From the UHGV virus genome UHGV-0154878: a DNA stretch of 15,016 nt. One strand, written 5' to 3'. Shown here one piece after another: positions 1 through 14,421 of the stretch. The notes under the pieces are model-generated. The model was not told the DNA's origin. It searched no databases and was given only the letters and a program-made list of their open reading frames with translations. The translations under genes and the position numbers were made by a program. This DNA is from a virus. Position 1 is the first letter of the stretch. Each line of letters begins with the position of its first letter.

Positions 1-194
1 CTTGATCCATAGAGGATAAATGCAGACATCCCTTGTCTTGCTATGATCACTAGAATCATGAAACGAGCTGATCTATGCGCCCAAGCCTGGCTTATTTTTT
101 CTGATAGAGATTTCGCACTAAAAGCATGCGCTAAGCCGTAAATTGTCGAGATTGCCAACATCCCAAAAAAGCTTGCTATAGCGGTTCCAACCAT
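1..194 (-). CDS. Hypothetical small membrane protein, 3' end truncated by the window edge (N-terminal 64 aa visible: MVGTAIASFFGMLAISTIYGLAHAFSAKSLSEKISQAWAHRSARFMILVIIARQGMSAFILYGS...)
   Basis: Hand translation of the - strand from an ATG (complement of 192-194) stays open to position 1. An AAGGGG Shine-Dalgarno lies about 6 nt upstream. It starts 17 nt downstream of the cI stop on the same strand, so it is probably co-transcribed with cI. Two hydrophobic stretches are visible. It is absent from the ORF track because it has no stop in the window. Confidence 0.5.
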   Translation of the reverse strand, partial: MVGTAIASFFGMLAISTIYGLAHAFSAKSLSEKISQAWAHRSARFMILVIIARQGMSAFILYGS

Positions 195-211
195 AATCGC
201 CCCTTGCGTGA

Positions 212-928
212 TCAAACCAGCCTTAGTTTTGTCTCAATTGCAACGCCTATAATCTTGCAGTTTCCATTGATTGGCACGAGAGGCCATGCAGGGTTAAGTC
301 CCTTGAGGTATTTATTTCCGCCGTCGATTATCAGCTTCTTGAATGTTGCTTCGTTAGAGTCAGAAAGTTTTGCTATGACCAAGCTGCCGTTGATCGCCTC
401 CCTTCCGGTATCGAAAAGAACGAATGTTCCCTCTGGAATGCTTAACCCAACCGGTGCCGTCATTGAATCACCTTCCACTTTAAGCCAGAACGCATTACCT
501 TGAATATGCGCGTCAGACTCAAGCCAAACATCTATGTCTTTAATGGTGTATGGTTCGCATGCTTCACACCACGAGCCAGCCTGGATACTGCTTAACACCG
601 GATACCTCTTTCCTGCTCTGTATTCCCCTGCATACCTTACGTTGGCATCGCTCTTAAGGCTTTCTGCCTGTTCTGCAACCTTGGCAGCAATTGACTGGCT
701 AAAATCAGCAATTGAGACTTGCAACAATCGTGCAAAACCAGATGCAACCTCAACGTTTAGCGCATTTCTGCCATTAAGATAATGCCCTACCGCTCCTTGG
801 GTGATACCCAGTTCATCAGCGATTGAGTATTGGGTTATTCCCAATTCTTTCTTTTTTGACTCATACAAAGCCTTAAGCCGCTTAGCGTCTTCGAGCTGTT
901 CTGTCGTCAGTGATTTTTTATTTTCCAT
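212..928 (-). CDS. cI: CI-type prophage repressor (N-terminal HTH, C-terminal S24/LexA-like autocleavage domain)
   Basis: The 238-aa ORF aligns by eye with lambda CI along its length (LTxEQLEDAxRLKAxYExKKxELG...; FWLxVEGxSMTAP; ATFKKLIxD). It is divergent from the cro-like gene across a roughly 100-bp operator region. Confidence 0.93.
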   Translation of the reverse strand: MENKKSLTTEQLEDAKRLKALYESKKKELGITQYSIADELGITQGAVGHYLNGRNALNVEVASGFARLLQVSIADFSQSIAAKVAEQAESLKSDANVRYAGEYRAGKRYPVLSSIQAGSWCEACEPYTIKDIDVWLESDAHIQGNAFWLKVEGDSMTAPVGLSIPEGTFVLFDTGREAINGSLVIAKLSDSNEATFKKLIIDGGNKYLKGLNPAWPLVPINGNCKIIGVAIETKLRLV

Positions 929-934
929 AGCTTA

Positions 935-1012
935 ATTCTAATAGCTAAGGTACTTAAACTAAAAATACCCTGAGTATTGATTGCTTTGAATACCTGTAGT
1001 ATTCTTTGTTCA
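935..1012. promoter_or_regulatory. OR-like immunity operator region with three sites sharing AATAC-N5-GTATT, plus candidate divergent promoters PRM and PR
   Basis: Two perfect palindromes are AATACcctgaGTATT (964-978) and gAATACctgtaGTATTc (988-1004). A degenerate third is AATAGctaagGTACT (940-954). Centre-to-centre spacing is 24 to 25 bp. A candidate PRM -10 (TAGAAT on the - strand, + coordinates 935-940) sits about 6 nt upstream of the cI ATG, implying a leaderless cI mRNA as in lambda. A candidate PR is TTGATT (977-982), 17 bp, TATTCT (1000-1005). Promoter hexamers are weak matches and uncertain. Confidence 0.6.
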
Positions 1013-1034
1013 TGGTTAATAACGGAGAGTGCAT

Positions 1035-1229
1035 ATGATTCGAATGACACTTGCCGATTACGCCAAAATCCATGGACAGGCTAAAGCAGCCAGTGACTTT
1101 GGTGTAATCCAGTGCGCTATCAGCAAGGCCATTCTGGCAGGCCGTAACATCATGGTTACGGTAAAGCCTGATGGCAGTGTGATTGGAGAGGAAGTTCGTC
1201 CTTTCCCAAGCAACAAGAAAAACAAATAG
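1035..1229 (+). CDS. cro: Cro-type repressor
   Basis: The 64-aa product [62 protein letters not shown] aligns with lambda Cro ([21 protein letters not shown]...PFPSNKK). GGAG lies 7 nt upstream of ATG 1035. The track's GTG at 1029 is an alternative start. Confidence 0.85.
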
Positions 1230-1235
1230 TAACAC

Positions 1236-1305
1236 CGCTCTTTAACAGTCATGGTCCTCATTCCCGCCGAAATGCGGGAATACAACGCGCATAAGTTGAT
1301 GCGCA
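1236..1305 (+). promoter_or_regulatory. nutR-like site (boxA plus boxB-like hairpin) followed by a tR1-like hairpin
   Basis: CGCTCTTTAACA at 1236-1247 matches the boxA consensus. A perfect 7-bp stem hairpin TTCCCGC-cgaaat-GCGGGAA follows at 1261-1280. A second hairpin GCGCAT-aagttg-ATGCGC at 1287-1304 precedes a T-rich tract. The location between cro and cII matches lambda nutR/tR1. Confidence 0.45.
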
Positions 1306-1337
1306 TAACTTCTTATTTGTTAAGGAAATACTTACAT

Positions 1338-1616
1338 ATGCAACTTACAAGTACTCGCAAGAAAGCGAATGCAATTACAAGCAACATCCTGAATCGAATT
1401 GCTGTACGTGGTCAGCGAAAGGTTGCCGACGCGTTAGGGATTAATGAATCGCAAATTTCGCGATGGAAAGACAGCTTCATCCCAAAAATGGGAATGCTTC
1501 TGGCTGTGCTGGAGTGGGGTGTTGAAGACGAGGAATTAGCGGAGCTGGCAAAGAAAGTAGCCATGGTGCTGACAAAAGAAAAGCCTCAAGACTGCTGCAA
1601 CAGTTTTGAGGCCTGA
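1338..1616 (+). CDS. cII: CII-type transcriptional activator
   Basis: The C-terminal part aligns with lambda CII ([42 protein letters not shown]). I place the start at ATG 1338 with AAGGA about 11 nt upstream; the track ORF begins at 1251. Confidence 0.8.
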
Positions 1617-1650
1617 TGTAGAAAGACTGGATCAATCCACAGGAGTCATT

Positions 1651-1797
1651 ATGACAAAACAACTCAGTCCTTACCAGGACAAAATTCACAAACACATACT
1701 ACGTGATCGCTTCCTGTCCAGCTTCAAGCAGCCTGGTCGATTCCGGGCTGAGTTGGAAAAAGTGAAGCTGATGCAGAAGGAGAAAGGTCATGAGTAA
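1651..1797 (+). CDS. Hypothetical small protein (48 aa) between cII and the replication initiator
   Basis: AGGAGT Shine-Dalgarno 5 nt upstream of ATG 1651. Its stop overlaps the downstream start by 8 nt. No recognisable family. Confidence 0.4.
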
Positions 1798-2689
1798 CAT
1801 ATCTAATCTAGCCGAAGCCAGAGAGGCCAGAAGGCTACAACAACCGCATCAAAGCAGCGGTAAGGGGTATGCCTTGCTGCACCGTAAAATTATGGATGTG
1901 CCGTTTTACAAGGACGCAGAAGCTGCGCATCTGTGGGTTCACTTAATCCTCAAAGCAAAGCATACGCCTGAGTATGTAATGACTGACGCAGGAGAAATTC
2001 TGGTAGGCAGAGGGAAGCTACTTGGCGGTAGAAACTCTCTGGCGTTTGAAACAGGACTCAAACCAGATCGCGTTCAGTACCTGCTTAGAAAGTTCAAAAA
2101 ACTCGGCATGATTGACTGGGTTTCACACGGTAAATTCTCAGTTTTCTCGGTAGAGAAATATGACGATTATCAGTCAAATTTTGTACCAGCAGATTACCAG
2201 CAAATTACCACCTCAAAGCCAGCAATACCAATGCCTGCAAGCAATACTGTACCAGCAGATTACCAGCAAATTACCACAGATAAAGAATATAATAATATTA
2301 TCTCTAATACTGACGTATTAGAGAGTACCGTAGCAGACAAAAAGTCTGACAAGAAAAAACCTTCCGTCAGCTGTCAGGATGTTGTCGATGCTTACCACGA
2401 AATCCTTCCTGAAGCGCCAAGAATCCGCGCACTGAATGACAAGCGTAAAAACCAGATCCGAACGTTCTGGCGCAAAGCCGGAGTGATAACCCGCCAGCTT
2501 GACGGGCATGGGTTCACGATGCAGGACTGGAGAAATTATTTGAGCTACGTTGGCGAAAATTGCCGATGGATGTTCGAAGAGCGCCCAAACCATCAACGCG
2601 GAACCGTCTGGCACAAAAAGGGATTTGATTTCCTGCTTAACGATAATACCTACCTGAAAGTTCGTGAGGGTGAACACGATGACCGATAA
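1790..2689 (+). CDS. Replication initiation protein, lambda O / P22 gp18-like, with the origin embedded in the coding sequence
   Basis: Strong AAGGAGAAAGG Shine-Dalgarno. It sits immediately after cII and before a DnaB-family helicase. Direct DNA repeats (iterons) plus an AT-rich tract lie inside the gene and produce the duplicated peptide [10 protein letters not shown]. Confidence 0.75.
2182..2310 (+). repeat. Candidate origin of replication: iterons (two copies of a 30-bp unit, each containing ACCAGCARATT sub-repeats) followed by an AT-rich tract
   Basis: TGTACCAGCAGATTACCAGCAAATTACCAC occurs at 2182-2211 and again at 2248-2277, 66 bp apart. The AT-rich AGATAAAGAATATAATAATATTATCTCTAATACTG follows at 2278-2310. 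This is the same architecture as ori-lambda inside gene O. Confidence 0.65.
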
Positions 2690-4115
2690 TTTTTATGCGC
2701 CGCCCCATAGCATCGAGGCAGAGCAGGCGGTGATTGGTGGATTGCTTCTGGATGATGACAGCAGTGAGCGCGTCCAGAAAGTTCTGGCGATGCTGAAGCC
2801 TGATTCATTTTACAGCCGACCACACAAAATCCTTTTCGAAGAAATAACCAGAATGCACCGGGAGCAAAAGCCAGTAGATGGCCTGACGCTTTTCGATGAA
2901 CTGGAGCGTAAATCGTTAACGGCGTCTGTTGGCGGTTTTGCTTATATCGCTGAGATCGCAAAGAACACGCCAAGCGCAGCAAACATCGTTGCCTATGCAA
3001 TGCAGGTTCGTGAAACCGCAATGGAACGCTACGCCATCAACCGCATGACTGAAGCGACGGAATTGCTCTATTCCCGCAACGGAATGACTGCAACGCAGAA
3101 GTACGAAGCTATTCAGGCGATTTTCACGCAACTGACAGACCATGCAAAAACCGGATCGCGTCGCGGCCTTCGCTCATTTGGTGAGGTCATGGAAGACTGG
3201 GTTAGCGACCTTGAGAAGCGATTTGACCCGTCAGGCGAACAACGAGGAATGAGCACAGGGATCCCATCGCTGGACAGGATGCTGTCACCGAAAGGTCTGG
3301 TGAAAGGCTCTCTGTTTGTCATTGGCGCTCGCCCTAAGATGGGGAAAACGACGCTATACAGCCAGATGGCAATCAACTGCGCAGTGCATGAGAAAAAGCC
3401 CGCTCTGATGTTCAGCCTTGAAATGCCAGGTGATCAGATACTGGAAAAACTGGTAGGGCAGAAGTCTGGTGTTAACCCGAATATTTTTTACCTTCCGGCG
3501 ACAAATGACGCTGATGACGGCTATCAGGGTGATTACGATGGTGACTTCAACAGGGCGATCGAAACAGCCAATCGCTTGAGTGAAATCGACCTGCTTTACA
3601 TCGACGACACGCCGGGATTATCTCTGGCTCAAATCGTCAGCGAAAGCCGTCGAATCAAGCGAGAAAAAGGATGTGTTGGCATGATTCTGGTCGATTACCT
3701 GACACTAATGACCGCTGAGAAGGCCGATCGCAACGACCTTGCTTACGGCATGATCACCAAAGGACTGAAGAACCTTGCCAAAGAGCTTGATTGCGTTGTT
3801 GTGCTTCTGACACAGCTTAACCGCGCACTGGAAAGCCGAACCAATAAACGCCCATTACCAAGTGACTCGCGAGATACAGGGCAGATTGAACAGGATTGCG
3901 ATTATTGGGTCGGGATCCATCGTGAAGGTGCTTTTGATGACAGCGTTCCTCCTGGTGAAACCGAACTAATCCTTCGTCTCAATCGTCATGGCAATACCGG
4001 CACGGTGTATTGCATTCAGGCAAATGGCGCTATTTATGACACAGACCAACAGTCTGCTGAAATGCGCCGACGTGAACGCGAGGAACCGCAGTCCAAGAAG
4101 AAAGGAGGATTCTGA
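2679..4115 (+). CDS. Replicative DNA helicase, DnaB family (P22 gp12-like)
   Basis: DnaB N-terminal domain (SIEAEQAVIGGLLLD...). Walker A GARPKMGKTT. RecA-like C-terminal region. GAGGG Shine-Dalgarno before ATG 2679, which overlaps the upstream stop. Confidence 0.9.
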   Translation: MTDNFYAPPHSIEAEQAVIGGLLLDDDSSERVQKVLAMLKPDSFYSRPHKILFEEITRMHREQKPVDGLTLFDELERKSLTASVGGFAYIAEIAKNTPSAANIVAYAMQVRETAMERYAINRMTEATELLYSRNGMTATQKYEAIQAIFTQLTDHAKTGSRRGLRSFGEVMEDWVSDLEKRFDPSGEQRGMSTGIPSLDRMLSPKGLVKGSLFVIGARPKMGKTTLYSQMAINCAVHEKKPALMFSLEMPGDQILEKLVGQKSGVNPNIFYLPATNDADDGYQGDYDGDFNRAIETANRLSEIDLLYIDDTPGLSLAQIVSESRRIKREKGCVGMILVDYLTLMTAEKADRNDLAYGMITKGLKNLAKELDCVVVLLTQLNRALESRTNKRPLPSDSRDTGQIEQDCDYWVGIHREGAFDDSVPPGETELILRLNRHGNTGTVYCIQANGAIYDTDQQSAEMRRREREEPQSKKKGGF

Positions 4116-4384
4116 TGAATAAAAAACAATTAGCCATTCTCGAAAAGGCATGGGATGCGCAAATATCATACGCTTTGAAAGAACAGGCACTACCAATAAT
4201 CCAGACCAAATCGAAAATAGCCAGGCAGTTATGCGATGGCGGATTCCTGAACGAAGTTGAGATTACGCGCCAGATGGTAACGTTCAAAGGGTATGAGATA
4301 AATCATCATGGTATAGCGGCGTATTGCTCCCATCTTCCTGATGACGTTGACATTGATGAAGTGGAAAGGGAGATGAAGCAATGA
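4115..4384 (+). CDS. Hypothetical protein (89 aa) in the ren position
   Basis: ATGA overlap with the helicase stop suggests translational coupling. No recognisable motif. Confidence 0.5.
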   Translation: MNKKQLAILEKAWDAQISYALKEQALPIIQTKSKIARQLCDGGFLNEVEITRQMVTFKGYEINHHGIAAYCSHLPDDVDIDEVEREMKQ

Positions 4385-4409
4385 CCATCTACATCACTGA
4401 GTTAATAAC

Positions 4410-4441
4410 AGGCCTGCTGGTAATCGCAGGCCTTTTTATTT
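4410..4441 (+). terminator. Intrinsic terminator (tR2-like)
   Basis: Perfect 8-bp GC-rich stem AGGCCTGC-tggtaatc-GCAGGCCT followed by TTTTTATTT, located where lambda carries tR2 between the replication and nin genes. Confidence 0.7.
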
Positions 4442-4456
4442 GGGGGAGAGGGAAGT

Positions 4457-4783
4457 GTGGCTGACTGGCAAATTCCAATCATCATTCTTGCCGGAGCTTC
4501 GCTGGTTGCTGGCTTTATCCTGCTGAAGAAGCATAAAGACCGTGATCAAAAAGTCGAAGTTCTCTATGGGTATCCAGCGAACTGCACAACATGGCTGACC
4601 ATTTACCACTACCGAAAATCAGGCCGTTGGGTATTCGAATGGGATGATCTGTTTGCTGAAAAGCGACCAAAGTCATGGGGAGACATCAGCGAATGCATGA
4701 TGTTTGAAGAAAGAAAATCCGGCGCAACTCGAGAAGAGTTTAACGAAGCGTGGAGGCGATTAAGTGAGAGAGGGTATCAATGA
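4457..4783 (+). CDS. Hypothetical protein with an N-terminal transmembrane helix (108 aa; GTG start)
   Basis: GGGAGAGGGAAG Shine-Dalgarno upstream of GTG 4457. Hydrophobic N-terminus IPIIILAGASLVAGFILL followed by a charged soluble domain. Confidence 0.55.
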   Translation: MADWQIPIIILAGASLVAGFILLKKHKDRDQKVEVLYGYPANCTTWLTIYHYRKSGRWVFEWDDLFAEKRPKSWGDISECMMFEERKSGATREEFNEAWRRLSERGYQ

Positions 4784-4805
4784 GCAGAATTAAGTCGAGG
4801 TAACG

Positions 4806-5252
4806 ATGAGGCAAATATACATGCTTCGCAACGAAGCAATCAGAAACAACGCCATAGACGCAATACACTCACTTCCGATCGACGACAAGTCACCCCACGA
4901 AGTCCACATTAAAGAACCAAAGCGGAGCAATCCTCAAAACCGCCTTATGTGGGCGTTATTGCAGGACGTATCGCGTCAGGTGCTCTGGCATGGAGAGAGA
5001 CTTGCGCCGGAGGACTGGAAAGATCTGTTCACTGCCCTGTGGCTTAAGACCAAAAAACTGGAGCAACGAAGTGCGCCTGGTATCGACGGTGGCGTTGTTA
5101 TGCTTGGCGTGCGTACCAGCAAAATGCGAAAGGCCAGCATGACTGAGCTTATCGAAATCATGTTCTGGTTCGGCTCAGAGCGCAACGTGCGGTGGAGTGA
5201 TGACTCCCGGCGAGAGTATGAATGGTCACAACGAAAAGGGAAGGCTGCATGA
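4806..5252 (+). CDS. ninB: NinB/Orf-family recombination protein
   Basis: Resembles lambda NinB (QNRxLWAxLxDVSRQVxWHG...WKxxFTA...RxVRWSD). ATG 4821 is an alternative start. Confidence 0.75.
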   Translation: MRQIYMLRNEAIRNNAIDAIHSLPIDDKSPHEVHIKEPKRSNPQNRLMWALLQDVSRQVLWHGERLAPEDWKDLFTALWLKTKKLEQRSAPGIDGGVVMLGVRTSKMRKASMTELIEIMFWFGSERNVRWSDDSRREYEWSQRKGKAA

Positions 5253-5776
5253 CTATCAAATCAAATACGCCAGCACACGACAAGGACTGCTGGCAAACGC
5301 CGCTCTGGCTTTTTGATGCGCTGGATATTGAGTTTGGATTCTGGCTGGATTCAGCTGCGAGCGACAAAAACGCTCTGTGCGCTCACTGGCTAACTGAGGC
5401 TGACGACGCGCTAAATTCTGAGTGGATAAGCCACGGTGCAATCTGGAATAACCCACCGTACAGCAATATCAGGCCGTGGGTGGAAAAAGCCGCTGAGCAG
5501 TGCATACAACAGCGACAGACGGTAGTGATGCTTGTGCCAGAGGATATGTCAGTCGGATGGTTCAGCAAGGCTCTGGAGAGTGTCGACGAAGTTCGCATTA
5601 TCACTGATGGACGGATTAATTTTATCGAACCATCGACAGGGCTGGAGAAGAAGGGAAACAGCAAAGGCTCCATGCTGCTGATTTGGCGACCGTTCATCAG
5701 TCCTCGACGGATGTTTACTACCGTATCCAAAGCGGCATTGATGGCGATCGGGCAGGGCGTCAGGAGGGCGGCATGA
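5249..5776 (+). CDS. Phage Dam-family DNA N6-adenine methyltransferase (orphan)
   Basis: Motifs DxWQTPxWLFDALDxEFGF and NPPYS (the catalytic D/N-PP-Y/F motif). ATGA overlap with the ninB stop. No adjacent restriction endonuclease. Confidence 0.8.
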
Positions 5777-5955
5777 GACGACAGCGACGAAGTATCACCG
5801 ACATCATCTGCGAAAACTGCAAATACCTTCCAACGAAACGCTCCAGAAATAAACGCAAGCCAATCCCAAAAGAATCTGACGTAAAAACCTTCAACTACAC
5901 GGCTCACCTGTGGGATATCCGGTGGCTTAGAGAACGTGCGAGGAAAACAAGGTGA
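5773..5955 (+). CDS. ninE: NinE-like small protein (60 aa)
   Basis: [60 protein letters not shown] matches my recollection of lambda NinE. ATGA overlap with the upstream stop. Confidence 0.6.
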
Positions 5956-6122
5956 TTGACCCAAATCGAAGTTACGAACAAGAAAGCGTCGAGCGGGCTT
6001 TAACGTGCGCTAACTGCGGTCAGAAGCTGCATGTGCTGGAAGTTCACGTGTGCTCCGATTGCTGCGCAGAACTGATGAGCGATCCGAATAGCTCAATGTA
6101 CGAGGAAGAAGACGATGAATGA
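5952..6122 (+). CDS. ninF: NinF-like small Cys-rich protein (56 aa; GTG start)
   Basis: Hand-translated [56 protein letters not shown] resembles lambda NinF. GTGA overlap with the ninE stop. Below the ORF-track size cut-off. Confidence 0.6.
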
Positions 6123-6837
6123 GTTAATAAATGGCAATGCCATCAAAATGACAAGCATTGAAATCGCTGAGTTGGTGGGTAAGCGTCATGACAATGTGAA
6201 ACGTACCATCGAAACGCTGGCTAAAAATGGTGTTATCCGGCTTCCTCAAATTGAGGTTTCCGAAAGAATCAATAACTTAGGGTTCAATGTTCAGTACGAG
6301 CATTACGTCTTCGAAGGCGAACAAGGTAAGCGAGATAGTATTGTTGTTGTTGCCCAGTTGTCGCCAGAGTTCACCGCTCGCCTTGTTGACCGCTGGCGAG
6401 AGCTTGAAGAAGCTGCGGTTAATATCCCCAAAACGCTACCGGAAGCGTTGCGCCTTGCTGCTGATCTTGCTGAGCAGAAAATGCAACTGGAAAACCAGCT
6501 CGCAATTGCCGCACCTAAAGTTGAGTTTGCCGATCGCGTTGGCGAGGCCAGCGGAATTTTGATTGGAAACTTTGCAAAGGTTGTTGGTATTGGTCCAAAC
6601 AAACTGTTTGCGTGGATGCGCGATCACAAAATCCTTATTGCTTCAGGTTCCCGGCGCAATGTGCCAATGCAGGAATATATGGATCGCGGCTATTTCACAG
6701 TGAAAGAAACAGCGGTCAACACAAATCACGGAATACAGATATCGTTCACCACAAAAATCACCGGGCGTGGTCAACAGTGGCTGACCAGAAAGCTGCTCGA
6801 TAACGGAATGCTGAAAGTAACAGGGGAGGCTGCTTAA
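6115..6837 (+). CDS. Phage antirepressor, Rha-family N-terminal domain with KilAC/ANT C-terminal domain
   Basis: N-terminus IEIAELVGKRHDNVKRTIETL is typical of the Rha family. The C-terminus (KLFAWMRDHKIL...EYMDRGYF) is typical of KilAC antirepressor domains. Confidence 0.75.
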   Translation: MNELINGNAIKMTSIEIAELVGKRHDNVKRTIETLAKNGVIRLPQIEVSERINNLGFNVQYEHYVFEGEQGKRDSIVVVAQLSPEFTARLVDRWRELEEAAVNIPKTLPEALRLAADLAEQKMQLENQLAIAAPKVEFADRVGEASGILIGNFAKVVGIGPNKLFAWMRDHKILIASGSRRNVPMQEYMDRGYFTVKETAVNTNHGIQISFTTKITGRGQQWLTRKLLDNGMLKVTGEAA

Positions 6838-7127
6838 TGGCTAACCTACGCAAAGAAGCGCGCGGCAGAGAATGCCAGGTACGTATTTACGGCGTATGCA
6901 ATGGCAATCCTGAAACTACAGTTCTGGCACATTACCGGATGGCTGGAATTTGCGGAACGGGAATGAAGCCTGACGACCTGATCGGCGCATGGGCTTGTAG
7001 CGCGTGTCACGATGAAATCGACCGACGCACCCATAATCTCGACAACAAAGACGCCAGACTTTACCACCTCGAAGGCGTGATCAGGACGCAGGCGATACTG
7101 CTGAAGGAGGGGAAGATTAAGCCATGA
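6837..7127 (+). CDS. DUF1364-family protein (YbcO-like putative nuclease, Cys/His-rich)
   Basis: RGRECQVRIxGVCNGNPETxVLAH...CSACHDEIDRRTH resembles E. coli DLP12 YbcO. TAATG overlap with the upstream stop and a GGGGAGG Shine-Dalgarno. Confidence 0.7.
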   Translation: MANLRKEARGRECQVRIYGVCNGNPETTVLAHYRMAGICGTGMKPDDLIGAWACSACHDEIDRRTHNLDNKDARLYHLEGVIRTQAILLKEGKIKP

Positions 7128-7486
7128 ACGAATATCAGTTTGTGCTTCCATACCCGCCGTCGGTGAACACCTACTGGCGAAGACGGGGAAGCCAATACTA
7201 CATCAGCGATAAAGGCCAGAAATACCGAAAAGACGTTCAGCAAATCATCCGCCAACTTAAGTTAGACATTTTCACCAAATCACGACTCCGCATCAAAGTC
7301 ATCGCAGACGTTCCAGACTCCCGCCGCCGCGACCTCGACAACATCCTGAAAGGTTTACTCGACTCCCTTATCCACGCCGGATTTGCGGAAGACGACGAGC
7401 AATTCGATGACATTCGCGTAATTCGTGGTGTGAAAGTACCAGGCGGACGGCTTGGAATAAAAATCACCGAACTGGAGAACGTATGA
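7124..7486 (+). CDS. rusA: RusA-family Holliday junction resolvase
   Basis: LPxPPSxNxYWR...RRRDLDNxxKxxxDxLxxAGF...GGRLxIxITE aligns with E. coli RusA. Confidence 0.9.
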   Translation: MNEYQFVLPYPPSVNTYWRRRGSQYYISDKGQKYRKDVQQIIRQLKLDIFTKSRLRIKVIADVPDSRRRDLDNILKGLLDSLIHAGFAEDDEQFDDIRVIRGVKVPGGRLGIKITELENV

Positions 7487-7671
7487 ACGCCACAATTCAA
7501 ACGATACCAGAGCTTCTTATCCAGACACGAGGCAATCAGACCGAAGTGGCGAGGATGCTTTCCTGCGCAAGAGGAACAGTGCTCAAGTACAACCGAGACA
7601 GCAAAGGCGAGCGTCACGTAATAGTTAACGGCGTCCTGATGGTCAAACAGGGCAAGAGGGGAAGACGATGA
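7483..7671 (+). CDS. ninH: NinH-like protein
   Basis: TIPExLxxxxGNQTEVARxLxCxRGTVxKYxxDxxGxxHxIVNxVLMV matches lambda NinH. Confidence 0.75.
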   Translation: MNATIQTIPELLIQTRGNQTEVARMLSCARGTVLKYNRDSKGERHVIVNGVLMVKQGKRGRR

Positions 7672-8156
7672 GCATAAGAGAACTAAACCTCACCAAAGAG
7701 CAGCACGAGTGGCTGAATGGCTGGCTTGAACTGTGGGGCGCATGGGTTTATTCAGGTCGTCTGGAAAAGCGCATGAGCAGCGTAATAGCGAAGTTCATGG
7801 AGAGCGTAGAGCCGGGAAGAGTTATGACAAGGCCAATGTGCAATGATGATGATGGAATGTTGATTTCTCAGGTCGTCGATTCCGTCATGTACATTGACAA
7901 GAAAGCCTTTGGCATCCTCCTCAGCTACTACGCTCATGGATCTTCCAAGCATGCCATTGCATCTTACTATCATCGCGTCGCAAGACCTCGCAAGATGTTA
8001 TGCCGGGGCGGCGGGCGTATTCAAAAACCATCGCTCGCAACCTGTCGCCGGGAAGTTGACGAAATCCTCAATGCTTCGTTGTTTATGATTTACCCGGTTC
8101 TGGATAGTGCGTTTAAAAACCGGAAACGTGTAGAGAAAATTAAACATGTAGCATAG
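7668..8156 (+). CDS. Q: Late-gene antitermination protein Q (QuuD/Q82-like family)
   Basis: Motifs LELWGAWV and RPMCNDDDGMLI resemble QuuD-type Q proteins. It is the last gene of the nin region and sits immediately upstream of a promoter-like element, tRNA genes and the lysis cassette. Confidence 0.8.
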   Translation: MSIRELNLTKEQHEWLNGWLELWGAWVYSGRLEKRMSSVIAKFMESVEPGRVMTRPMCNDDDGMLISQVVDSVMYIDKKAFGILLSYYAHGSSKHAIASYYHRVARPRKMLCRGGGRIQKPSLATCRREVDEILNASLFMIYPVLDSAFKNRKRVEKIKHVA

Positions 8157-8162
8157 AACGTG

Positions 8163-8247
8163 TTGACATCATTGAGCAAATGAGCAACACTATTCGCATA
8201 AGCTGCCGTTAGTGACTCTTAAGTTGCAACGGTGGCTTTTTTTATTT
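8163..8247 (+). promoter_or_regulatory. Candidate late promoter PR' and qut region, ending in a tR'-like intrinsic terminator
   Basis: Consensus TTGACA at 8163-8168, 7 nt past the Q stop. The -10 is ambiguous (CACTAT, TATTCG or CATAAG). A hairpin GCTGCCGTT...AACGGTGGC with two G-U pairs is followed by TTTTTTTATTT (8202-8247). Confidence 0.4.
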
Positions 8248-8322
8248 GGGTCAGTCGTATAAAGGTCATTACGGAAGGCTGTTAACCTTCTTATCGTGGT
8301 TCGAGTCCACGCTGTCCCGCCA
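8248..8322 (+). tRNA. tRNA with anticodon GTT (Asn), non-canonical (one acceptor-stem mismatch, short D-stem)
   Basis: Hand-folded cloverleaf. Anticodon arm GAAGG-cTGTTaa-CCTTC. T-arm CGTGG-TTCGAGT-CCACG. Acceptor GGGTCAG/CTGTCCC has a T-T mismatch at position 4:69. Discriminator G, then encoded CCA. Confidence 0.6.
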
Positions 8323-8327
8323 AATAT

Positions 8328-8403
8328 GCTGGTTTAGCTCCAATGGTAGAGCGGTCGCCTTGTAAGCGAATGGGTAGCGGTTCAAGTCCGTTAACCAGCA
8401 CCA
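8328..8403 (+). tRNA. tRNA with anticodon TGT (Thr)
   Basis: Perfect 7-bp acceptor stem GCTGGTT/AACCAGC. D-arm GCTC-caatGGta-GAGC. Anticodon loop cTTGTaa. T-arm AGCGG-TTCAAGT-CCGTT. Discriminator A, then encoded CCA. Confidence 0.75.
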
Positions 8404-8490
8404 TAACTGAGCCGTAGCCACTGGCTATCCTGAATTCATCAGTGATAGTTACGCTGCGGCCTTCTACACATGACCTTCGTGAAAGCGGGC

Positions 8491-8526
8491 GGCATGAGGT
8501 TGCGCTAACAACCTCCTGCCGTTTTG
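8491..8526 (+). terminator. Hairpin with a short T-run downstream of the tRNA genes (candidate terminator or processing structure)
   Basis: 12-bp stem with one mismatch, GGCATGAGGTTG-cgctaa-CAACCTCCTGCC, followed by GTTTT. Confidence 0.4.
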
Positions 8527-8645
8527 CCCGTGCATATCGGTCACGAACAAATCTGATTACTAAACACAGTAGCCTGGATTTGTTCTATCAGTAATCGACC
8601 TTATTCCTAATTAAATAGAGCAAATCCCCTTATTGGGGGTAAGAC

Positions 8646-8969
8646 ATGAAGATGCCAGAAAAACATGACCTGTTAGCCGCCATTCTCGCGGCAAAGGAAC
8701 AAGGCATCGGGGCAATCCTTGCGTTTGCAATGGCGTACCTTCGCGGCAGATATAATGGCGGTGCGTTTACAAAAACAGTAATCGACGCAACGATGTGCGC
8801 CATTATCGCCTGGTTCATTCGTGACCTTCTCGACTTCGCCGGACTAAGTAGCAATCTCGCTTATATAACGAGCGTGTTCATCGGCTACATCGGTACTGAC
8901 TCGATTGGTTCGCTTATCAAACGCTTCGCTGCTAAAAAAGCCGGAGTAGAAGATGGTGGAAATCAATAA
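8646..8969 (+). CDS. S: Class I holin, lambda S type, with dual-start motif (Met1-Lys2-Met3)
   Basis: The 107-aa product is almost identical to lambda S as I recall it ([39 protein letters not shown]...). The MKM N-terminus corresponds to the S107 antiholin and S105 holin starts. Confidence 0.95.
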
Positions 8970-9429
8970 TCAACGTAAGGCGTTCCTCGATATGCTGGCG
9001 TGGTCAGAGGGAACTGATAACGGACGTCAGAAAACCAGAAATCATGGTTATGACGTCATTGTTGGCGGAGAGCTATTCACTGATTACTCCGATCACCCTC
9101 GCAAACTTGTCACGCTAAACCCCAAACTCAAATCAACAGCAGCCGGACGTTACCAGCTTCTTTCCCGTTGGTGGGATGCCTATCGTAAGCAGCTTGGCCT
9201 GAAAGACTTCTCTCCGAAAAGCCAGGACGCTGTGGCATTGCAGCAGATTAAAGAGCGTGGCGCTTTACCGATGATTGATCGCGGTGATATCCGTCAGGCT
9301 ATCGATCGTTGCAGCAATATCTGGGCGTCGTTACCTGGTGCAGGTTACGGTCAGTATGAACATAAAATCGGTGACCTGATTGCCCGATTTAAAGAGGCTG
9401 GTGGGGTGGTAAATGAAGTTGAGCTATAA
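8953..9429 (+). CDS. R: Endolysin, lambda R-type lytic transglycosylase
   Basis: The 158-aa product is near-identical to lambda R through most of its length ([51 protein letters not shown]...) and diverges only in the last residues. Confidence 0.95.
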
Positions 9430-9805
9430 GCTGGTTATCGCTGCATTCTTCTTTACTGTCATCGGTTCTTTCATCTGGTCTGCCAACCACTACTACAGCA
9501 AATATCAGCACGAAAAGAAACGTGCTGATGAGGCTGTACAAAATGCCAAATCGGCAACTGTCATTACCAATAACGTCCTGCAATCACTGCAAATCGTCAA
9601 TACAGTTCTGGAGGCTAACCAGCATGCAAAACAGCAGATCACACTGGAGTCACAGAGAACCGAGAACGATATCAAGGCTGCTGTTGCGGATGATGATTGT
9701 GCTGTTCGTTTTGTGCCTTCTGGCGCAGTTAAGCGGCTGCACGACTACGCGAACGGTCTACGTTCCAGTTCCGGTGGTTCCGTTACCAGCCAACCTGACG
9801 GCTGA
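9413..9805 (+). CDS. Rz: Rz-like inner-membrane spanin (i-spanin), not lambda-type
   Basis: N-terminal transmembrane helix LVIAAFFFTVIGSFIW followed by a charged, probably coiled-coil periplasmic region. Sits directly after the endolysin and overlaps its 3' end by 17 nt. Confidence 0.6.
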   Translation: MKLSYKLVIAAFFFTVIGSFIWSANHYYSKYQHEKKRADEAVQNAKSATVITNNVLQSLQIVNTVLEANQHAKQQITLESQRTENDIKAAVADDDCAVRFVPSGAVKRLHDYANGLRSSSGGSVTSQPDG

Positions 9806-9968
9806 AACACCGCAGCCAGACTTACCCGACCCGTTTACGTGGGGAGCAAGTCTTGACCTGAATGTCGCATTGCTGTCAGCGCTGGCGCAGTGCAACAGGG
9901 ATAAGGCTGATATCAGGATTTTCGAGAACAACAGGGCAGGACAAACCGATGGCACGATTAAACGTTGA
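9690..9968 (+). CDS. Rz1: Rz1-like outer-membrane lipoprotein spanin (o-spanin), overlapped in the +1 frame and extending past the Rz stop
   Basis: Signal peptide plus lipobox MMIVLFVLCLLAQLSGC, followed by the proline-rich stretch TVYVPVPVVPLPANL typical of Rz1. The start lies inside Rz in a different frame. Confidence 0.55.
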   Translation: MMIVLFVLCLLAQLSGCTTTRTVYVPVPVVPLPANLTAETPQPDLPDPFTWGASLDLNVALLSALAQCNRDKADIRIFENNRAGQTDGTIKR

Positions 9969-10134
9969 AGTTATCCCACCAGACAGCGAGGTGCTGAACG
10001 GGATTTTTGCAGAGATTGAGCGCAAATATGCGCGTCAGCCGCTGACGCCAAAAGTAATTGATGAAATGCAACGCGAAGTGGCGCGCCTTGTGCGGCGAAT
10101 GATAACCACAAAGGTTACGTTCGTCCGGGACTGA
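9949..10134 (+). CDS. Hypothetical small protein (61 aa)
   Basis: ATG 9949 with AGGGCAGGA upstream. Followed by a hairpin at 10142-10164. No recognisable family. Confidence 0.35.
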   Translation: MARLNVEVIPPDSEVLNGIFAEIERKYARQPLTPKVIDEMQREVARLVRRMITTKVTFVRD

Positions 10135-10188
10135 CATTACAGAAGCCCTTCACTGAGGGGCTTCGATAATGGAGCACTGGAATTATTC

Positions 10189-10809
10189 ATGAACAGACCA
10201 CACCCACCAGCGCATTTTACGATGCCACCTGACCCGAAGCCGTACATCAGCATTATGCCCGCTAATGACGTTGGCGAGTGGCTGAATCAGCACATCCTGA
10301 GCGATGAGGGTGACCTCTACAACCCTGACCACCAGCATTTGCTTGAAGCGGATCTGTGCTTTCTCTGGGCGTCGAACGCTTTCGAGAAGAAAGGGCGTTC
10401 CGTGCTGGGGCAGGCGGAAGAAGTGGCAATGCGTGCCGGAGGCTGGCAGAAAGCGCGGATGGAGCAGCAGATGTATGAATGGTTCGGCAGGGTGCCGCAG
10501 TTCATCATCACGCTGGCCGCTGATTACTGCTCGCAATGTTCCGATCTGGAATTCTGCGCGCTGATAGAGCACGAGCTTTATCACATTTGCCAGGCGACAG
10601 ATGAATTTGGCGCGCCGAAGTTCACGCAGGAAGGGCAGCCAAAGCTGAAGCTGCGCGGCCATGACGTGGAAGAGTTTGTGGGCGTGGTTCGCCGTTACGG
10701 TGCGAGCCGGGACGTGCAGGAAATGATTGATGCGGCGAATCAGCCAGCGGAGGTTGCTCATCTCGATATTGCCAGAGCGTGCGGGACGTGCATGCTGCGA
10801 CTGGCTTAA
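10189..10809 (+). CDS. Putative zinc metallopeptidase-like protein (HExxH motif), possibly of the phage 'putative peptidase' family
   Basis: EHELYH motif in a 206-aa ORF co-oriented with all flanking late genes. The overlapping - strand ORF (10183-10878) has antisense-type composition. Family assignment is from memory and unverified. Confidence 0.5.
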   Translation: MNRPHPPAHFTMPPDPKPYISIMPANDVGEWLNQHILSDEGDLYNPDHQHLLEADLCFLWASNAFEKKGRSVLGQAEEVAMRAGGWQKARMEQQMYEWFGRVPQFIITLAADYCSQCSDLEFCALIEHELYHICQATDEFGAPKFTQEGQPKLKLRGHDVEEFVGVVRRYGASRDVQEMIDAANQPAEVAHLDIARACGTCMLRLA

Positions 10810-10840
10810 ATACTGGACTGTATAAGACGAATGGTGATTT

Positions 10841-11314
10841 ATGGCTGCATTAAAACCTGATGTGAAAGCCTTCATCATTCAGTCGCTTGCGTGCTATGAC
10901 ACGCCATCGCAGGTGGTCGAGGCTGTCCAAAAAGAATTCGGGATCAAGATCACCCGCCAGCAGGCTGAATCTCACGACCCCACGAAGGCCAGCGGTAAGA
11001 CGCTCGCCAAAAAGTGGATCGAGATGTTCCACGCGACGCGCGAACGGTTCCTGACCGAAACCAGCGACATTCCGATCGCGAACAAATCCTATCGCCTCCG
11101 CGTGCTTGACCGCATGGCAACCAAAACCGAGGGGATGAAAAACTTCTCCCTGACGGCGCAGCTGATTGAACAGGCCGCGAAAGAGGTTGGCGACGCTTAC
11201 ACCAATAAGCTGAAGGTTGAGAGCACTGGCAAGGATGGCGGCCCGATCAAGACCGAGACGACCAACCTCACCGCAGATCAGGCCGCAGAGATTTACCGCA
11301 AGATGATGGGGTGA
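10841..11314 (+). CDS. Putative terminase small subunit (DUF2280-like)
   Basis: 157-aa ORF immediately upstream of the large terminase subunit, with an overlapping stop. The N-terminal region looks like a DNA-binding domain. Assignment is by position and weak recollection. Confidence 0.5.
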
Positions 11315-11316
11315 TC

Positions 11317-12939
11317 ATGCCTCTCCCGTTTGAATTCGATTTCAGAAACCCTGATTACCAGATGGTTTTTGAATGGCGGATGGAGCGCTTACAGCGCATT
11401 CGCCAGAACCCTGAAATGCTGCCAGCGCTAAAGCAGTTTTACCGCACCAACCCGGCACAGTTCATCATCGACTGGGGTATGACTACTGACCCGCGTAACA
11501 TCGATTATGGCCTGCCGGTCACCATCCCTTTTCTGCTGTTCCCGAAACAGGAAGAGTGGATTCACTGGATCATGGAGCGGCGCGAACGACTGGAGAACGG
11601 CATCACCGAAAAGAGCCGCGAAATGGGGCTCAGCTGGACGGCGATCGGGCTGGCCTGTTCGCTCTGCCTCTTCAACAAAGAAATGGTTATCGGTTTCGGC
11701 TCCCGTAAAGAGGAATACGTCGACAGCACCGGTGACCCGAAGGCGCTGTTCTGGAAGGCGCGAAAGTTCGTGGAAACACTGCCCATCGAGTTTCGTGGTT
11801 CGTGGGACGAGAAGAAGCATGCGCCGTATATGCGCGTTGAGTTTCCAGATACTGGCGCGGTTATCAAAGGCGAGGCTGGCGACAATATCGGACGTGGTGA
11901 CCGTACCACGCTCTACCTGGTGGATGAAGCTGCATTCCTCCAGCGTCCTCTGTTGATTGATGCGGCGCTGTCGCAAACCACCCGTTGCCGTATTGACCTG
12001 AGCTCGGTTAATGGCATGGCGAACCCGTTCGCGCAGAAGCGCCACGGCGGAAAAATACCAGTATTCACATTCCACTGGCGAGATGACCCGCGCAAGGATG
12101 AAGAGTGGTATCGCAGGGAGTGCGAGAAAATCGACAATCCGGTGGTGGTGGCGCAGGAACTTGACCTGAACTACAGCGCATCTGCGGAAGGCGTCCTGAT
12201 CCCGTCCGACTGGGTACAGGCTGCCGTCGACGCGCATATCAAACTTGGTATTCAGCCAACGGGCAAGCGACTTGGCGCGATGGACGTCGCCGACGAAGGC
12301 CGGGACAAAAATGCCTTTTCGACCCGTCACGGCTTCCTTCTGGAGAACGTGCGTGAATGGTCCGGCGTGGGCAGCGACATTTACCAGTCCGTTGAGAAGG
12401 TCTTCGGCTTTTGCGAACAGGACAACCTCGAAGAGTTTCGCTTCGACGAGGACGGCCTGGGTGCTGGCGTTCGCGGCGATGCGCGCGCCATCAACGAACT
12501 GCGTAACGCTGCGCGCCGACCGTCAATACTCGCCACACCGTTTCGTGGTAGCGGCGCGGTATTTGATCCGGACGATGAAGCGGTGCGCGGGGACAACGGA
12601 CAGGCCGCACGCCTGAACAAGGACTTCTTCGCCAACGCCAAGGCCCAGAGCTGGTGGTGGCTACGCAAGCTTTTCCAGAACACCTATCGCGCCGTGGTTG
12701 AGGGCATGGCCTACAACCCGGACGAAATCATCTCAATCAGCAGCGCCATGGCGAGCAAAGACAAACTCATCATCGAGCTGTCGCAGCCGACCTACTCCAT
12801 TAACGGCGTGGGGAAAATCGTTGTTGATAAACAGCCTGACGGCACCAAGTCGCCGAACCTCGCCGACTCGGTGATGATCAGCTACGCGCCAATGAATTCA
12901 GCCCTGAACATCTGGGAGCTGCTAGGGAGACAGGCCTGA
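11317..12939 (+). CDS. Terminase large subunit
   Basis: About 540 aa with ATPase and nuclease-type architecture (LYLVDEAAF Walker B-like segment), positioned between the small terminase and portal. GGGG Shine-Dalgarno 6 nt before ATG 11317; GTG 11311 is the alternative start. Confidence 0.85.
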
Positions 12940-14405: not shown

Positions 14406-14421
14406 TAGCGTTACCGAAATA

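What the first reader, a model, noticed from the sequence alone, without database searches (positions are those of the whole stretch)
2182..2310. Replication origin iterons embedded in the initiator gene
A 30-bp unit is repeated exactly 66 bp apart, each unit built from about 2.5 copies of an 11-bp ACCAGCARATT motif, and is followed by a 33-bp AT-rich stretch. This matches the ori-lambda design of iterons plus a DNA-unwinding element inside gene O. The repeats are in frame and encode a duplicated peptide ([10 protein letters not shown]) in what is presumably the interdomain linker of the initiator.
Basis: seen in the sequence. Interest (0 to 1): 0.45.

Follow-up and report, generated by a model that had tools for sequence, protein, structure and literature searches.

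The report
Phage replication origin inside initiator gene
The repeats are real and are almost certainly the replication origin of a lambda-like phage, sitting inside the gene for its own initiator protein, but public records of phages HK620 and VT2-Sakai already annotate this same element.

Summary
An exact 30-bp unit lies at 2182-2211 and 2248-2277, 66 bp apart. Each unit holds 2.5 tandem 11-bp repeats (TACCAGCArAT). The most AT-rich 33-mer of the window follows.

All of it lies in gene 1790-2689, a 299-aa initiator. A DnaB-type helicase gene follows.

The HK620 record marks rep_origin at exactly these coordinates. The VT2-Sakai record marks 'ori iteron 1' and 'ori iteron 2' on the same two 30-mers. 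A 2020 paper describes the equivalent 11-bp repeats in phage L.

Comparison of about 90 distinct relatives supports a DNA-level function:
- The 11-bp period is out of codon phase.
- Third-codon positions in the units are far less variable than elsewhere.
- The 66-bp spacing is conserved while the spacer diverges.
- Unit sequence follows the initiator's N-terminal domain, and the palindrome follows its C-terminal domain.
- The palindrome shows compensatory changes in all 10 pairs.

The repeats encode a linker that AlphaFold2 predicts with low confidence.

The initiator is not a lambda O family member by sequence. Its sites are direct repeats, not dyads. No experiment on this origin type was found.

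The parts
1790..2689 (+). Replication initiator gene ('O', 299 aa). N-terminal winged-helix-like domain about aa 26-125, low-confidence linker aa 131-191, C-terminal helical domain aa 195-293.
   Evidence: ORF list and translation. phrog_345 'replication initiation O-like', E 1e-87. 98-99.7% identical to the O proteins of mEp235, VT2-Sakai and HK022. AlphaFold2 model. Foldseek neighbours are wHTH proteins and phage 'replisome organizer' or DnaD-like proteins.
2182..2211 (+). Iteron unit 1. Cores TACCAGCAGAT (2184-2194), TACCAGCAAAT (2195-2205) and partial TACCAC (2206-2211), 11 bp apart.
   Evidence: Annotated 'ori iteron 1' in AP000422.1 and as part of rep_origin in AF335538.1.
2212..2247 (+). 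Inter-unit spacer. Variable in sequence and fixed in length, so the units stay 66 = 6 x 11 bp apart. Holds a weak in-phase core, GCCAGCAATAC, at 2218.
   Evidence: 66-bp spacing found in about 70 of 91 distinct relatives under a strict exact-match test. Spacer differs by 37.6% where the units differ by 3.4%. In-phase CCAGCA at 2219.
2248..2277 (+). Iteron unit 2, identical to unit 1.
   Evidence: Annotated 'ori iteron 2' in AP000422.1 and as part of rep_origin in AF335538.1.
2278..2300 (.). AT-rich stretch, the putative DNA-unwinding element. Also the junction at which the N-domain+iteron module and the palindrome+C-domain module are exchanged between phages.
   Evidence: 2278-2310 is 85% A+T, the maximum for the window. 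Conserved as an Asn/Ile-codon run in all relatives. Module junction.
2301..2324 (.). Perfect 10-bp inverted repeat with a 4-nt loop: TCTCTAATAC TGAC GTATTAGAGA.
   Evidence: Present in all lineages with different sequences. 10 of 10 pairs show compensatory changes, 97.9% of cells paired against 31-53% in slid controls. ssDNA hairpin -8.6 kcal/mol, z -3.98.
2664..4115 (+). DnaB-family replicative helicase gene, called 'P' in phage records. HK620 annotates the start at 2679. Presumed partner of the initiator's C-terminal domain.
   Evidence: Pfam DnaB (E 3.5e-31) and DnaB_C (E 3e-60). TIGR03600 phage_DnaB, 584 bits against a cut-off of 499. HK620 annotation.

Best explanation
This is the phage's origin for theta-type (bidirectional) replication, embedded in the linker-coding part of its own initiator gene.

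Proposed mechanism (inferred except where stated):
1. The initiator's N-terminal winged-helix domain binds the 11-bp direct repeats. There are three cores per unit and two units 66 bp apart, so all cores lie on roughly one face of the helix.
2. The resulting nucleoprotein complex destabilises the adjacent AT-rich stretch.
3. The initiator's C-terminal domain brings in the phage's own DnaB-type helicase, encoded immediately downstream. No lambda-P-type loader is involved.
4. The conserved inverted repeat just right of the AT-rich stretch is part of the origin. It travels with the C-domain and helicase module. It may act as a hairpin or cruciform at the site of helicase entry.

Shown here: the anatomy, the DNA-level selection, the co-variation with protein domains and the identity with annotated origins. 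Inferred: binding, unwinding and helicase loading.
For: 1. Prior annotation. HK620 marks rep_origin at window 2182-2277. VT2-Sakai marks 'ori iteron 1' and 'ori iteron 2' on the same two 30-mers. Phage L marks a 'putative ori' at the same position in its homologous gene. PMC8022706 states that L gene 18 holds six imprecise 11-bp repeats (TGTCCAACGGA) that are 'likely the origin'.

2. Conserved layout. Relatives from Escherichia, Salmonella, Klebsiella, Enterobacter, Cronobacter, Yersinia, Erwinia, Pantoea and others share the same layout. It is two units of three cores 11 bp apart, then an AT-rich run, then a palindrome. Each lineage has its own 11-mer: TACCAGCAGAT, TGTCCAACGGA, TGTCCAGCCGA, TGCCAACAGAA or AATCCAAAGGA.

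3. Selection acts on the DNA. The 11-bp period is out of codon phase, so one DNA motif is read in three frames. Third-codon-position diversity is 0.03-0.15 in the units, against 0.36-0.55 in the N-domain and 0.17-0.40 in the spacer, in four iteron groups.

4. Specificity coupling. Unit sequence follows the N-domain (Mantel r 0.80, 0 of 2000 permutations; partial r 0.76) and not the C-domain (partial r 0.05). Pairs with similar N-domains but diverged C-domains differ by 3.4% in the units and 37.6% in the spacer between them. Unit 1 and unit 2 of one genome differ by 4% on average, against 36% between genomes whose N-domains differ by 30% or more.

5. Fixed spacing. The 66-bp spacing holds while the spacer sequence diverges.

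6. Palindrome. All 10 pairs carry compensatory changes.

7. Protein. The N-domain is predicted as a winged-helix fold. The repeats encode a low-confidence linker. Variants with 1, 3 and 4 units exist. A DnaB-type helicase gene follows.

8. Parallel layouts. Lambda and P22 origins have the same order, repeats then AT-rich run, inside their initiator genes; P22 also shows the palindrome.
Against: - No experiment is available. I found no paper showing replication from, or initiator binding to, this origin type. The database annotations are themselves predictions by analogy.
- The association of the units with the N-domain, and of the palindrome with the C-domain, could partly reflect physical linkage. 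The spacer contrast and the compensatory changes argue against linkage alone, but do not prove binding.
- The N-domain shows no detectable sequence similarity to lambda O. The lambda mechanism therefore cannot simply be transferred.
- Foldseek E-values against solved wHTH structures are weak (0.0075 or worse).
Confidence: 0.85

Rival explanations
1. The repeat is only a protein-level duplication, a repeated peptide in a flexible linker, or a neutral slippage product. It has no function as DNA.
For: The 66-bp unit is in frame and encodes [10 protein letters not shown] twice. Copy number varies from 1 to 4 units, as expected for slippage or unequal crossing-over between exact repeats. The region is predicted with low confidence, so insertions are tolerated.
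Against: The inner period is 11 bp, out of codon phase, so it is invisible at the protein level. Third-codon positions in the units are 3- to 10-fold less variable than in the flanking coding sequence. The spacer between the units diverges ten times more than the units. Both units change together with the N-domain in every lineage.
Confidence: 0.03
2. The repeats are initiator-binding sites with a mainly regulatory role, such as autoregulation, titration or handcuffing of the initiator, or exclusion of related phages. The true start of replication lies elsewhere.
For: Co-variation with the N-domain shows only that the initiator probably recognises them. In lambda, cloned iterons inhibit replication of homologous phages (PMC3349717), so iterons can act as regulatory sites.
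Against: The repeats directly adjoin the most AT-rich stretch of the window and a conserved palindrome. This is the same order as in the origins annotated in the lambda and P22 records. No other repeat cluster of this motif exists in the window. A regulatory role would not exclude origin function.
Confidence: 0.07
3. The palindrome plus the AT-rich run is an intrinsic terminator for leftward (minus-strand) transcription, or an RNA hairpin in the mRNA. It is not part of the origin.
For: On the minus strand the hairpin 2324-2301 is followed by TAATATTATT and fits the terminator-like scan. The phage L record carries computed minus-strand 'terminator' features close to this position. Compensatory changes fit an RNA stem as well as a DNA stem.
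Against: The number of terminator-like sites in the region (2) is what shuffles give (mean 1.8). The stem has only 3 G-C pairs. No leftward promoter is evident downstream (0 promoter-like sites in 1500-2800). P22 has a palindrome at the equivalent place. This rival concerns only the palindrome, not the iterons.
Confidence: 0.1

Closest known systems
Origins annotated in coliphages HK620 (AF335538.1), VT2-Sakai (AP000422.1) and HK022 (O/P module)
   Same: Same element. The initiator is 98-99.7% identical. The two 30-bp units sit at the same coordinates and are annotated as rep_origin (HK620) and as 'ori iteron 1' and 'ori iteron 2' (VT2-Sakai). The same DnaB-type helicase gene lies downstream.
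   Different: Nothing of substance. HK022 has one substitution in unit 2 (GTC for GTA) and a few in the spacer. These annotations mark only the two 30-mers. They do not mark the 11-bp substructure, the AT-rich stretch or the palindrome.
Phage L / ST64T gene 18 origin (Zaworski et al. 2020, PMC8022706)
   Same: Homologous initiator, 66% identical overall with a near-identical C-terminal half. Two units of 2.5 x 11-bp repeats 66 bp apart, an AT-rich run and the same palindrome, at the same place in the gene.
   Different: The 11-mer is TGTCCAACGGA instead of TACCAGCAGAT, and the N-terminal domain is only about 50% identical. This looks like a different origin specificity on a shared helicase-interaction module.
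Lambda origin and lambda O protein
   Same: The origin lies in the middle of a 299-aa initiator gene. Repeated initiator sites are followed by an AT-rich stretch. A palindrome to the right of it is from my own knowledge of lambda. The initiator has an N-terminal DNA-binding domain and a C-terminal domain that recruits the helicase machinery (established knowledge for lambda).
   Different: Lambda has four 18-bp sites. From established knowledge, these are dyad-symmetric and bound by O dimers. Here there are 11-bp head-to-tail direct repeats in two clusters. The N-domain does not match Pfam Phage_rep_O and shows no hhalign similarity to lambda O. The partner is a phage DnaB-type helicase, not lambda P, which hijacks host DnaB.
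P22 origin and gp18/gp12
   Same: The origin lies inside gene 18. TCGGTAAAAC-type repeats are followed by an AT-rich run and a palindrome (CCCCCT AAA GGGGG). A DnaB-type helicase gene (gene 12) lies downstream. There is weak C-terminal similarity of gp18 to this initiator (hhalign E 0.006).
   Different: The P22 gp18 N-domain is Pfam Phage_rep_O (E 7e-38) and this one is not. The repeat sequence and length differ.
Phage 'replisome organizer' / DnaD-like initiators (for example SPP1 G38P)
   Same: The predicted fold resembles viral proteins named replisome organizer or DnaD domain protein (Foldseek E down to 6e-11). PHROG 'DnaD-like helicase loader' families match residues 20-190. From my own knowledge, SPP1 G38P also binds repeats inside its own gene.
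   Different: No Pfam or NCBIfam model of those families matches. The relation is at fold and PHROG level only. Binding sites and partners were not compared here.

Membership tests
HK022 / HK620 / VT2-Sakai type origin-plus-initiator module | Initiator protein of this type (phrog_345; near-identical to HK022, HK620 and VT2-Sakai O) | tested here: met
   phrog_345 E 1e-87. 98-99.7% amino-acid identity. DNA 99% or more identical.
HK022 / HK620 / VT2-Sakai type origin-plus-initiator module | Two 30-bp units at the positions annotated as origin or iterons in those records | tested here: met
   VT2-Sakai iterons 1 and 2 map to window 2182-2211 and 2248-2277. HK620 rep_origin maps to window 2182-2277.
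HK022 / HK620 / VT2-Sakai type origin-plus-initiator module | DnaB-family helicase gene immediately downstream | tested here: met
   TIGR03600 phage_DnaB, 584 bits against a cut-off of 499. Pfam DnaB and DnaB_C.
Lambdoid origin layout (origin inside the initiator gene) | Repeated sites in the middle of the initiator gene, followed by an AT-rich stretch and then an inverted repeat | tested here: met
   for the window. for lambda and P22 for comparison.
Lambdoid origin layout (origin inside the initiator gene) | Initiator binds the repeats, and the fragment supports initiator-dependent replication | not testable with these tools
   Only indirect evidence: the units co-vary with the N-domain and are constrained at synonymous positions.
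Lambda O protein family (Pfam PF04492 Phage_rep_O) with lambda-type iterons | N-terminal domain matches Phage_rep_O | tested here: not met
   No Pfam hit for aa 1-125 even at E up to 1. Lambda O and P22 gp18 score E 6e-36 and 7e-38. hhalign probability 0.2% against lambda O.
Lambda O protein family (Pfam PF04492 Phage_rep_O) with lambda-type iterons | Iterons are dyad-symmetric sites of about 18 bp | tested here: not met
   The units are head-to-tail 11-bp direct repeats. No inverted repeat was found within 2182-2277.
Lambda O protein family (Pfam PF04492 Phage_rep_O) with lambda-type iterons | Partner is a lambda-P-type loader for host DnaB | tested here: not met
   The downstream gene is itself a DnaB-family helicase.
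Phage replisome organizer / DnaD-like initiators | N-terminal winged-helix DNA-binding domain plus a C-terminal helical domain | tested here: inconclusive
   AlphaFold2 N-domain pLDDT 83-96 with helix/strand order H-H-EEE-H-H-EE. Best solved-structure neighbours are all wHTH proteins, but E is 0.0075 or worse. Viral neighbours named replisome organizer or DnaD reach E 6e-11. PHROG DnaD-like families reach E 9e-21. No Pfam or NCBIfam model matches.

The most novel reading that the evidence does not exclude
This widespread enterobacterial phage origin may be a two-part device in which each half is matched to a different protein module.

Left half: head-to-tail 11-bp repeats, held in strict helical phase (3 + 3 cores, units 66 bp apart). 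They would be read by a non-lambda winged-helix N-domain as a one-sided array of monomers.

Right half: a hairpin or cruciform whose sequence changes by compensatory substitutions. It travels with the initiator's C-domain and the phage DnaB-type helicase, and would serve as the helicase-entry site.

The AT-rich melting region would double as the recombination joint where the two halves are swapped between phages. Natural variants with 1 to 4 units would tune origin strength. None of this has been tested experimentally, as far as my searches show.
Probability: 0.3. Interest if true: 0.4.

Novelty: already known. Interest (0 to 1): 0.18.

Why it matters
The element itself matters little as a discovery. 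It is the predicted origin of a common replication module found in HK022, HK620, mEp235 and several Shiga-toxin phages including VT2-Sakai. Public records have marked it as such since about 2000.

What may be useful to specialists:
- This origin type has apparently never been tested experimentally, although it drives replication of medically important Stx prophages. Replication after induction contributes to toxin gene dosage (established knowledge).
- The family-wide comparison gives a ready set of natural specificity variants: at least five 11-mer types, each paired with its own N-domain type.
- It also gives natural copy-number variants of 1 to 4 units.
- The co-varying palindrome is linked to the helicase-side module. 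This makes clear, cheap experiments possible.

Tried and rejected
- Sequence homology to lambda O. hhalign of two family profiles against lambda O gave probability 0.2%. Pfam at E up to 1 gave nothing for the N-domain. I therefore rejected filing the protein in the lambda O family.
- Solved structures by sequence. A profile search of the PDB found nothing meaningful (best E 0.49).
- NCBIfam. No model matches the initiator.
- Pfam DUF7376. The hit is below the cut-off (19.7 against 27 bits) and was ignored.
- Literature. I searched for experiments on this origin: VT2-Sakai + iteron gave 0 papers. HK022 + iteron gave only papers on other subjects. Searching the repeat sequences as text found only the phage L paper. 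The work on Stx-phage O proteins (PMC7466680) deals with lambda-type O of 933W and P27, not this type. Oberto et al. 1994 (PMC523588) is not held.
- Terminator reading of the palindrome. It fits the scan pattern on the minus strand, but the count is at chance level. I kept it as a minor rival.
- Rfam. No RNA family matches in or near the origin.
- First fetch of P22 coordinates missed gene 18 and was repeated.
- A diverse full-length alignment for structure prediction could not be built. The protein search returns mostly near-identical relatives. An N-domain profile search gave the needed diversity for that domain only, so the C-domain model rests on a shallow alignment.

Full report
**1. What is in the sequence**

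The window is the early-right region of a mosaic lambda-like phage. It holds:
- a cI-type repressor gene (212-928, minus strand);
- cro;
- a cII gene (1251-1616);
- a small DUF2740 gene;
- a 299-aa ORF at 1790-2689;
- a DnaB-family helicase gene at 2664-4115.

The first 4.2 kb is colinear with coliphage HK620.

Inside the 299-aa ORF, the 30-mer TGTACCAGCAGATTACCAGCAAATTACCAC occurs twice without a mismatch, at 2182-2211 and 2248-2277, 66 bp apart. Each copy holds TACCAGCAGAT, TACCAGCAAAT and a partial TACCAC in tandem with a period of 11 bp. The exact 11-mer occurs nowhere else in the 15 kb.

Directly after unit 2 comes 2278-2310. It is 85% A+T and is the most AT-rich 33-mer of the window.

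It overlaps the end of the AT-rich run. As single-stranded DNA it folds at -8.6 kcal/mol, z = -3.98.

The repeats are in frame and encode [10 protein letters not shown] twice.

**2. It is already annotated**

The gene is 99% or more identical to the 'O' genes of mEp235, Stx2 phage 86, VT2-Sakai and the Stx1 phage. It is 98% identical at protein level to HK022 O.
- The VT2-Sakai record AP000422.1 carries two misc_binding features, 'ori iteron 1' and 'ori iteron 2'. They map to window 2182-2211 and 2248-2277.
- The HK620 record AF335538.1 carries a two-piece rep_origin at window 2182-2277.
- The phage L record marks a 'putative origin of replication' at the same position in its homologous gene.

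These annotations are predictions by analogy. I found no experimental study of this origin type. The published biochemical work on Stx-phage O proteins concerns the lambda-type O of 933W and P27 (PMC7466680).

**3. Comparative evidence that the DNA is the selected object**

I collected 121 loci with homologous initiator genes from phage records, bacterial genomes and IMG/VR. They give about 90 distinct versions.

*Conserved layout, lineage-specific sequence.*
- The layout recurs throughout: a unit of three cores 11 bp apart, a spacer, a second unit, an AT-rich run, then a palindrome.
- Under a strict exact-match test, 78 of 91 versions show two triple-core clusters, and in about 70 the clusters are 66 bp apart.
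- The 11-mer differs by lineage: TACCAGCAGAT, TGTCCAACGGA/T, TGTCCAGCCGA, TGCCAACAGAA, AATCCAAAGGA, TACCAACAGAT.

*Out of codon phase.* Because 11 is not a multiple of 3, the same DNA motif is read in three frames. It gives unrelated amino acids, for example TGT CCA ACG GAT GTC CAA CGG ATG TCC in phage L. A periodicity that the protein cannot see is hard to explain except by selection on the DNA.

*Synonymous positions.* Diversity was measured in four iteron groups:

| Region | Diversity |
|---|---|
| Units, third codon positions | 0.03-0.15 |
| N-domain, third codon positions | 0.36-0.55 |
| Spacer, third codon positions | 0.17-0.40 |
| N-domain, first and second positions | 0.07-0.24 |

The units are thus at least as constrained as the non-synonymous positions of the folded domain.

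*Coupling to the N-domain.* Unit sequence follows the initiator's N-terminal domain and not its C-terminal domain:
- Mantel r is 0.80 for the N-domain, with 0 of 2000 permutations as high.
- Partial rank correlation is 0.76 for the N-domain and 0.05 for the C-domain.
- In 38 pairs with similar N-domains (15% different or less) but diverged C-domains (25% or more), the units differ by 3.4% and the spacer between them by 37.6%.
- In 127 pairs with near-identical C-domains but different N-domains, the units differ by 46%.
- Within one genome the two units differ by 4% on average. Between genomes with N-domains 30% or more different, they differ by 36%.

The spacer lies between the two units, so linkage alone cannot explain why the units are kept and the spacer is not. 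This is the pattern expected if the N-domain recognises the 11-mers.

**4. The palindrome**

Every lineage has a perfect 9-11-bp inverted repeat with a 2-4-nt loop at the homologous codons, but the sequence differs. Examples are TCTCTAATAC/GTATTAGAGA, TCTCTTCTAC/GTAGAAGAGA, ACTTACTACC/GGTAGTAAGT and ACTCATTAGAT/ATCTAATGAGT.

On 24 distinct versions:
- 97.9% of cells pair, against 31-53% when the partner is slid by 1-3 columns;
- all 10 pairs carry changes on both sides;
- the covariation score is 0.74, against 0.18 or less in the slid controls;
- no shuffle reached any of four of the five summary measures (1 of 500 reached the fifth, further pair types).

Caveat: I centred each sequence on its best palindrome, which favours pairing. 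However, the sites are homologous, and a perfect 10-bp stem at one fixed place in each lineage is not a selection artefact.

The palindrome sequence follows the C-domain (partial r 0.74) and not the N-domain (0.03). The joint between the '[N-domain + iterons]' module and the '[palindrome + C-domain + helicase]' module therefore lies in the AT-rich run. Linkage could account for this association. It remains a lead, not a result.

P22 has a palindrome at the equivalent place, after its own repeats and AT-rich run. From my own knowledge, lambda does too.

On the minus strand the hairpin is followed by a T-rich run and fits a terminator-like pattern. The number of such sites in the region is what shuffled sequence gives.

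**5. The protein**

AlphaFold2 was run on a 60-sequence alignment. It predicts:

| Residues | Prediction | pLDDT |
|---|---|---|
| 26-125 | N-domain, order H-H-EEE-H-H-EE | 83-96 |
| 131-191 | Low-confidence segment | below 50 |
| 195-293 | C-terminal helical domain | mostly 81-92 |

The low-confidence segment is exactly what the units, the AT-rich run and the palindrome encode.

So does natural copy-number variation:
- one unit in L097;
- three units in L092 and L093 and in 26 listed protein entries of 321 aa;
- four units in P0001, 343 aa.

The best solved-structure neighbours are all winged-helix DNA-binding proteins (CadC/SmtB, CodY, TubR, CRP, MarR), with weak E-values of 0.0075 or worse. 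Among predicted viral structures the neighbours are 'replisome organizer', 'DnaD domain' and 'replication initiator' proteins, with E down to 6e-11. This agrees with the PHROG matches.

The protein is not a lambda O family member by sequence:
- Lambda O and P22 gp18 match Pfam Phage_rep_O at E 6e-36 and 7e-38. This N-domain has no Pfam match even at E up to 1.
- Profile comparison with lambda O gives probability 0.2%.
- Only the C-terminal part shows a weak resemblance to P22 gp18 (E 0.006). That would fit a shared DnaB-type helicase partner.

**6. How it most likely works**

Steps 1-4 are inferred from the anatomy, from the co-variation and from established knowledge of lambda and P22 replication.
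1. N-domains bind the 11-bp direct repeats. With three cores per unit and units 6 x 11 bp apart, all sites lie on about one face of the helix.
2. The complex strains and opens the neighbouring AT-rich run.
3. The C-domain delivers the phage's own DnaB-type helicase.
4. Host primase and polymerase then take over.

Differences from lambda:
- The sites are direct repeats rather than dyads, which suggests monomer arrays rather than dimers.
- There are two clusters rather than four evenly spaced sites.
- There is no P-type loader.

**7. Verdict**

The element is already known as an annotated, untested prediction.

The additions made here are of modest interest to phage replication specialists. They are the strict phasing, DNA-level selection, coupling of the iterons to the N-domain, the co-varying palindrome tied to the helicase-side module, and the variants with 1 to 4 units. 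Their main value is in defining easy experiments for a replication module carried by Shiga-toxin phages.

Noticed in passing
L092, L093 (3 units); L097 (1 unit); P0002-P0027 (321 aa); P0001 (343 aa, 4 units): Natural copy-number variants of the exact 66-bp unit-plus-spacer. One, three and four units occur in otherwise near-identical initiator genes. All remain in frame, at 22 codons per unit.
   Followed up: partly
window 2278-2300 and the homologous stretch in L003-L121: The AT-rich run is the junction at which phages exchange modules. The iterons go with the N-domain (partial r 0.76). The palindrome goes with the C-domain (partial r 0.74).
   Followed up: partly
window 2217-2227: A weak fourth core, CCAGCAA, lies in phase (33 bp after the first core) inside the spacer. 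'CCAG' at this place is kept in several relatives of the same iteron group (for example L010, L098-L100, L108), so unit 1 may extend further than annotated.
   Followed up: no
window 1627-1659: [quoted passage not shown] It sits just upstream of the initiator gene.
   Followed up: no
window 8248-8322 and 8328-8403 (+): Two tRNA genes, tRNA-Asn (GTT) and tRNA-Thr (TGT), lie just upstream of a 107-aa ORF (8646-8969) whose near-identical homologue HK620 annotates as holin S.
   Followed up: partly
window 1-15016: No single phage record covers more than 46% of the window. The early region matches HK620 and mEpX2, while the replication module matches mEp235, HK022 and Stx phages. This is a typical lambdoid mosaic.
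   Followed up: no
L030, L031 (Silvania, Leclercia prophages): Homologous initiators whose repeat region departs from the standard layout. TTACCAAxxAAA-type repeats appear at about 11-12-bp spacing, with an extra 21 bp, and were not picked up by the strict three-core test.
   Followed up: no
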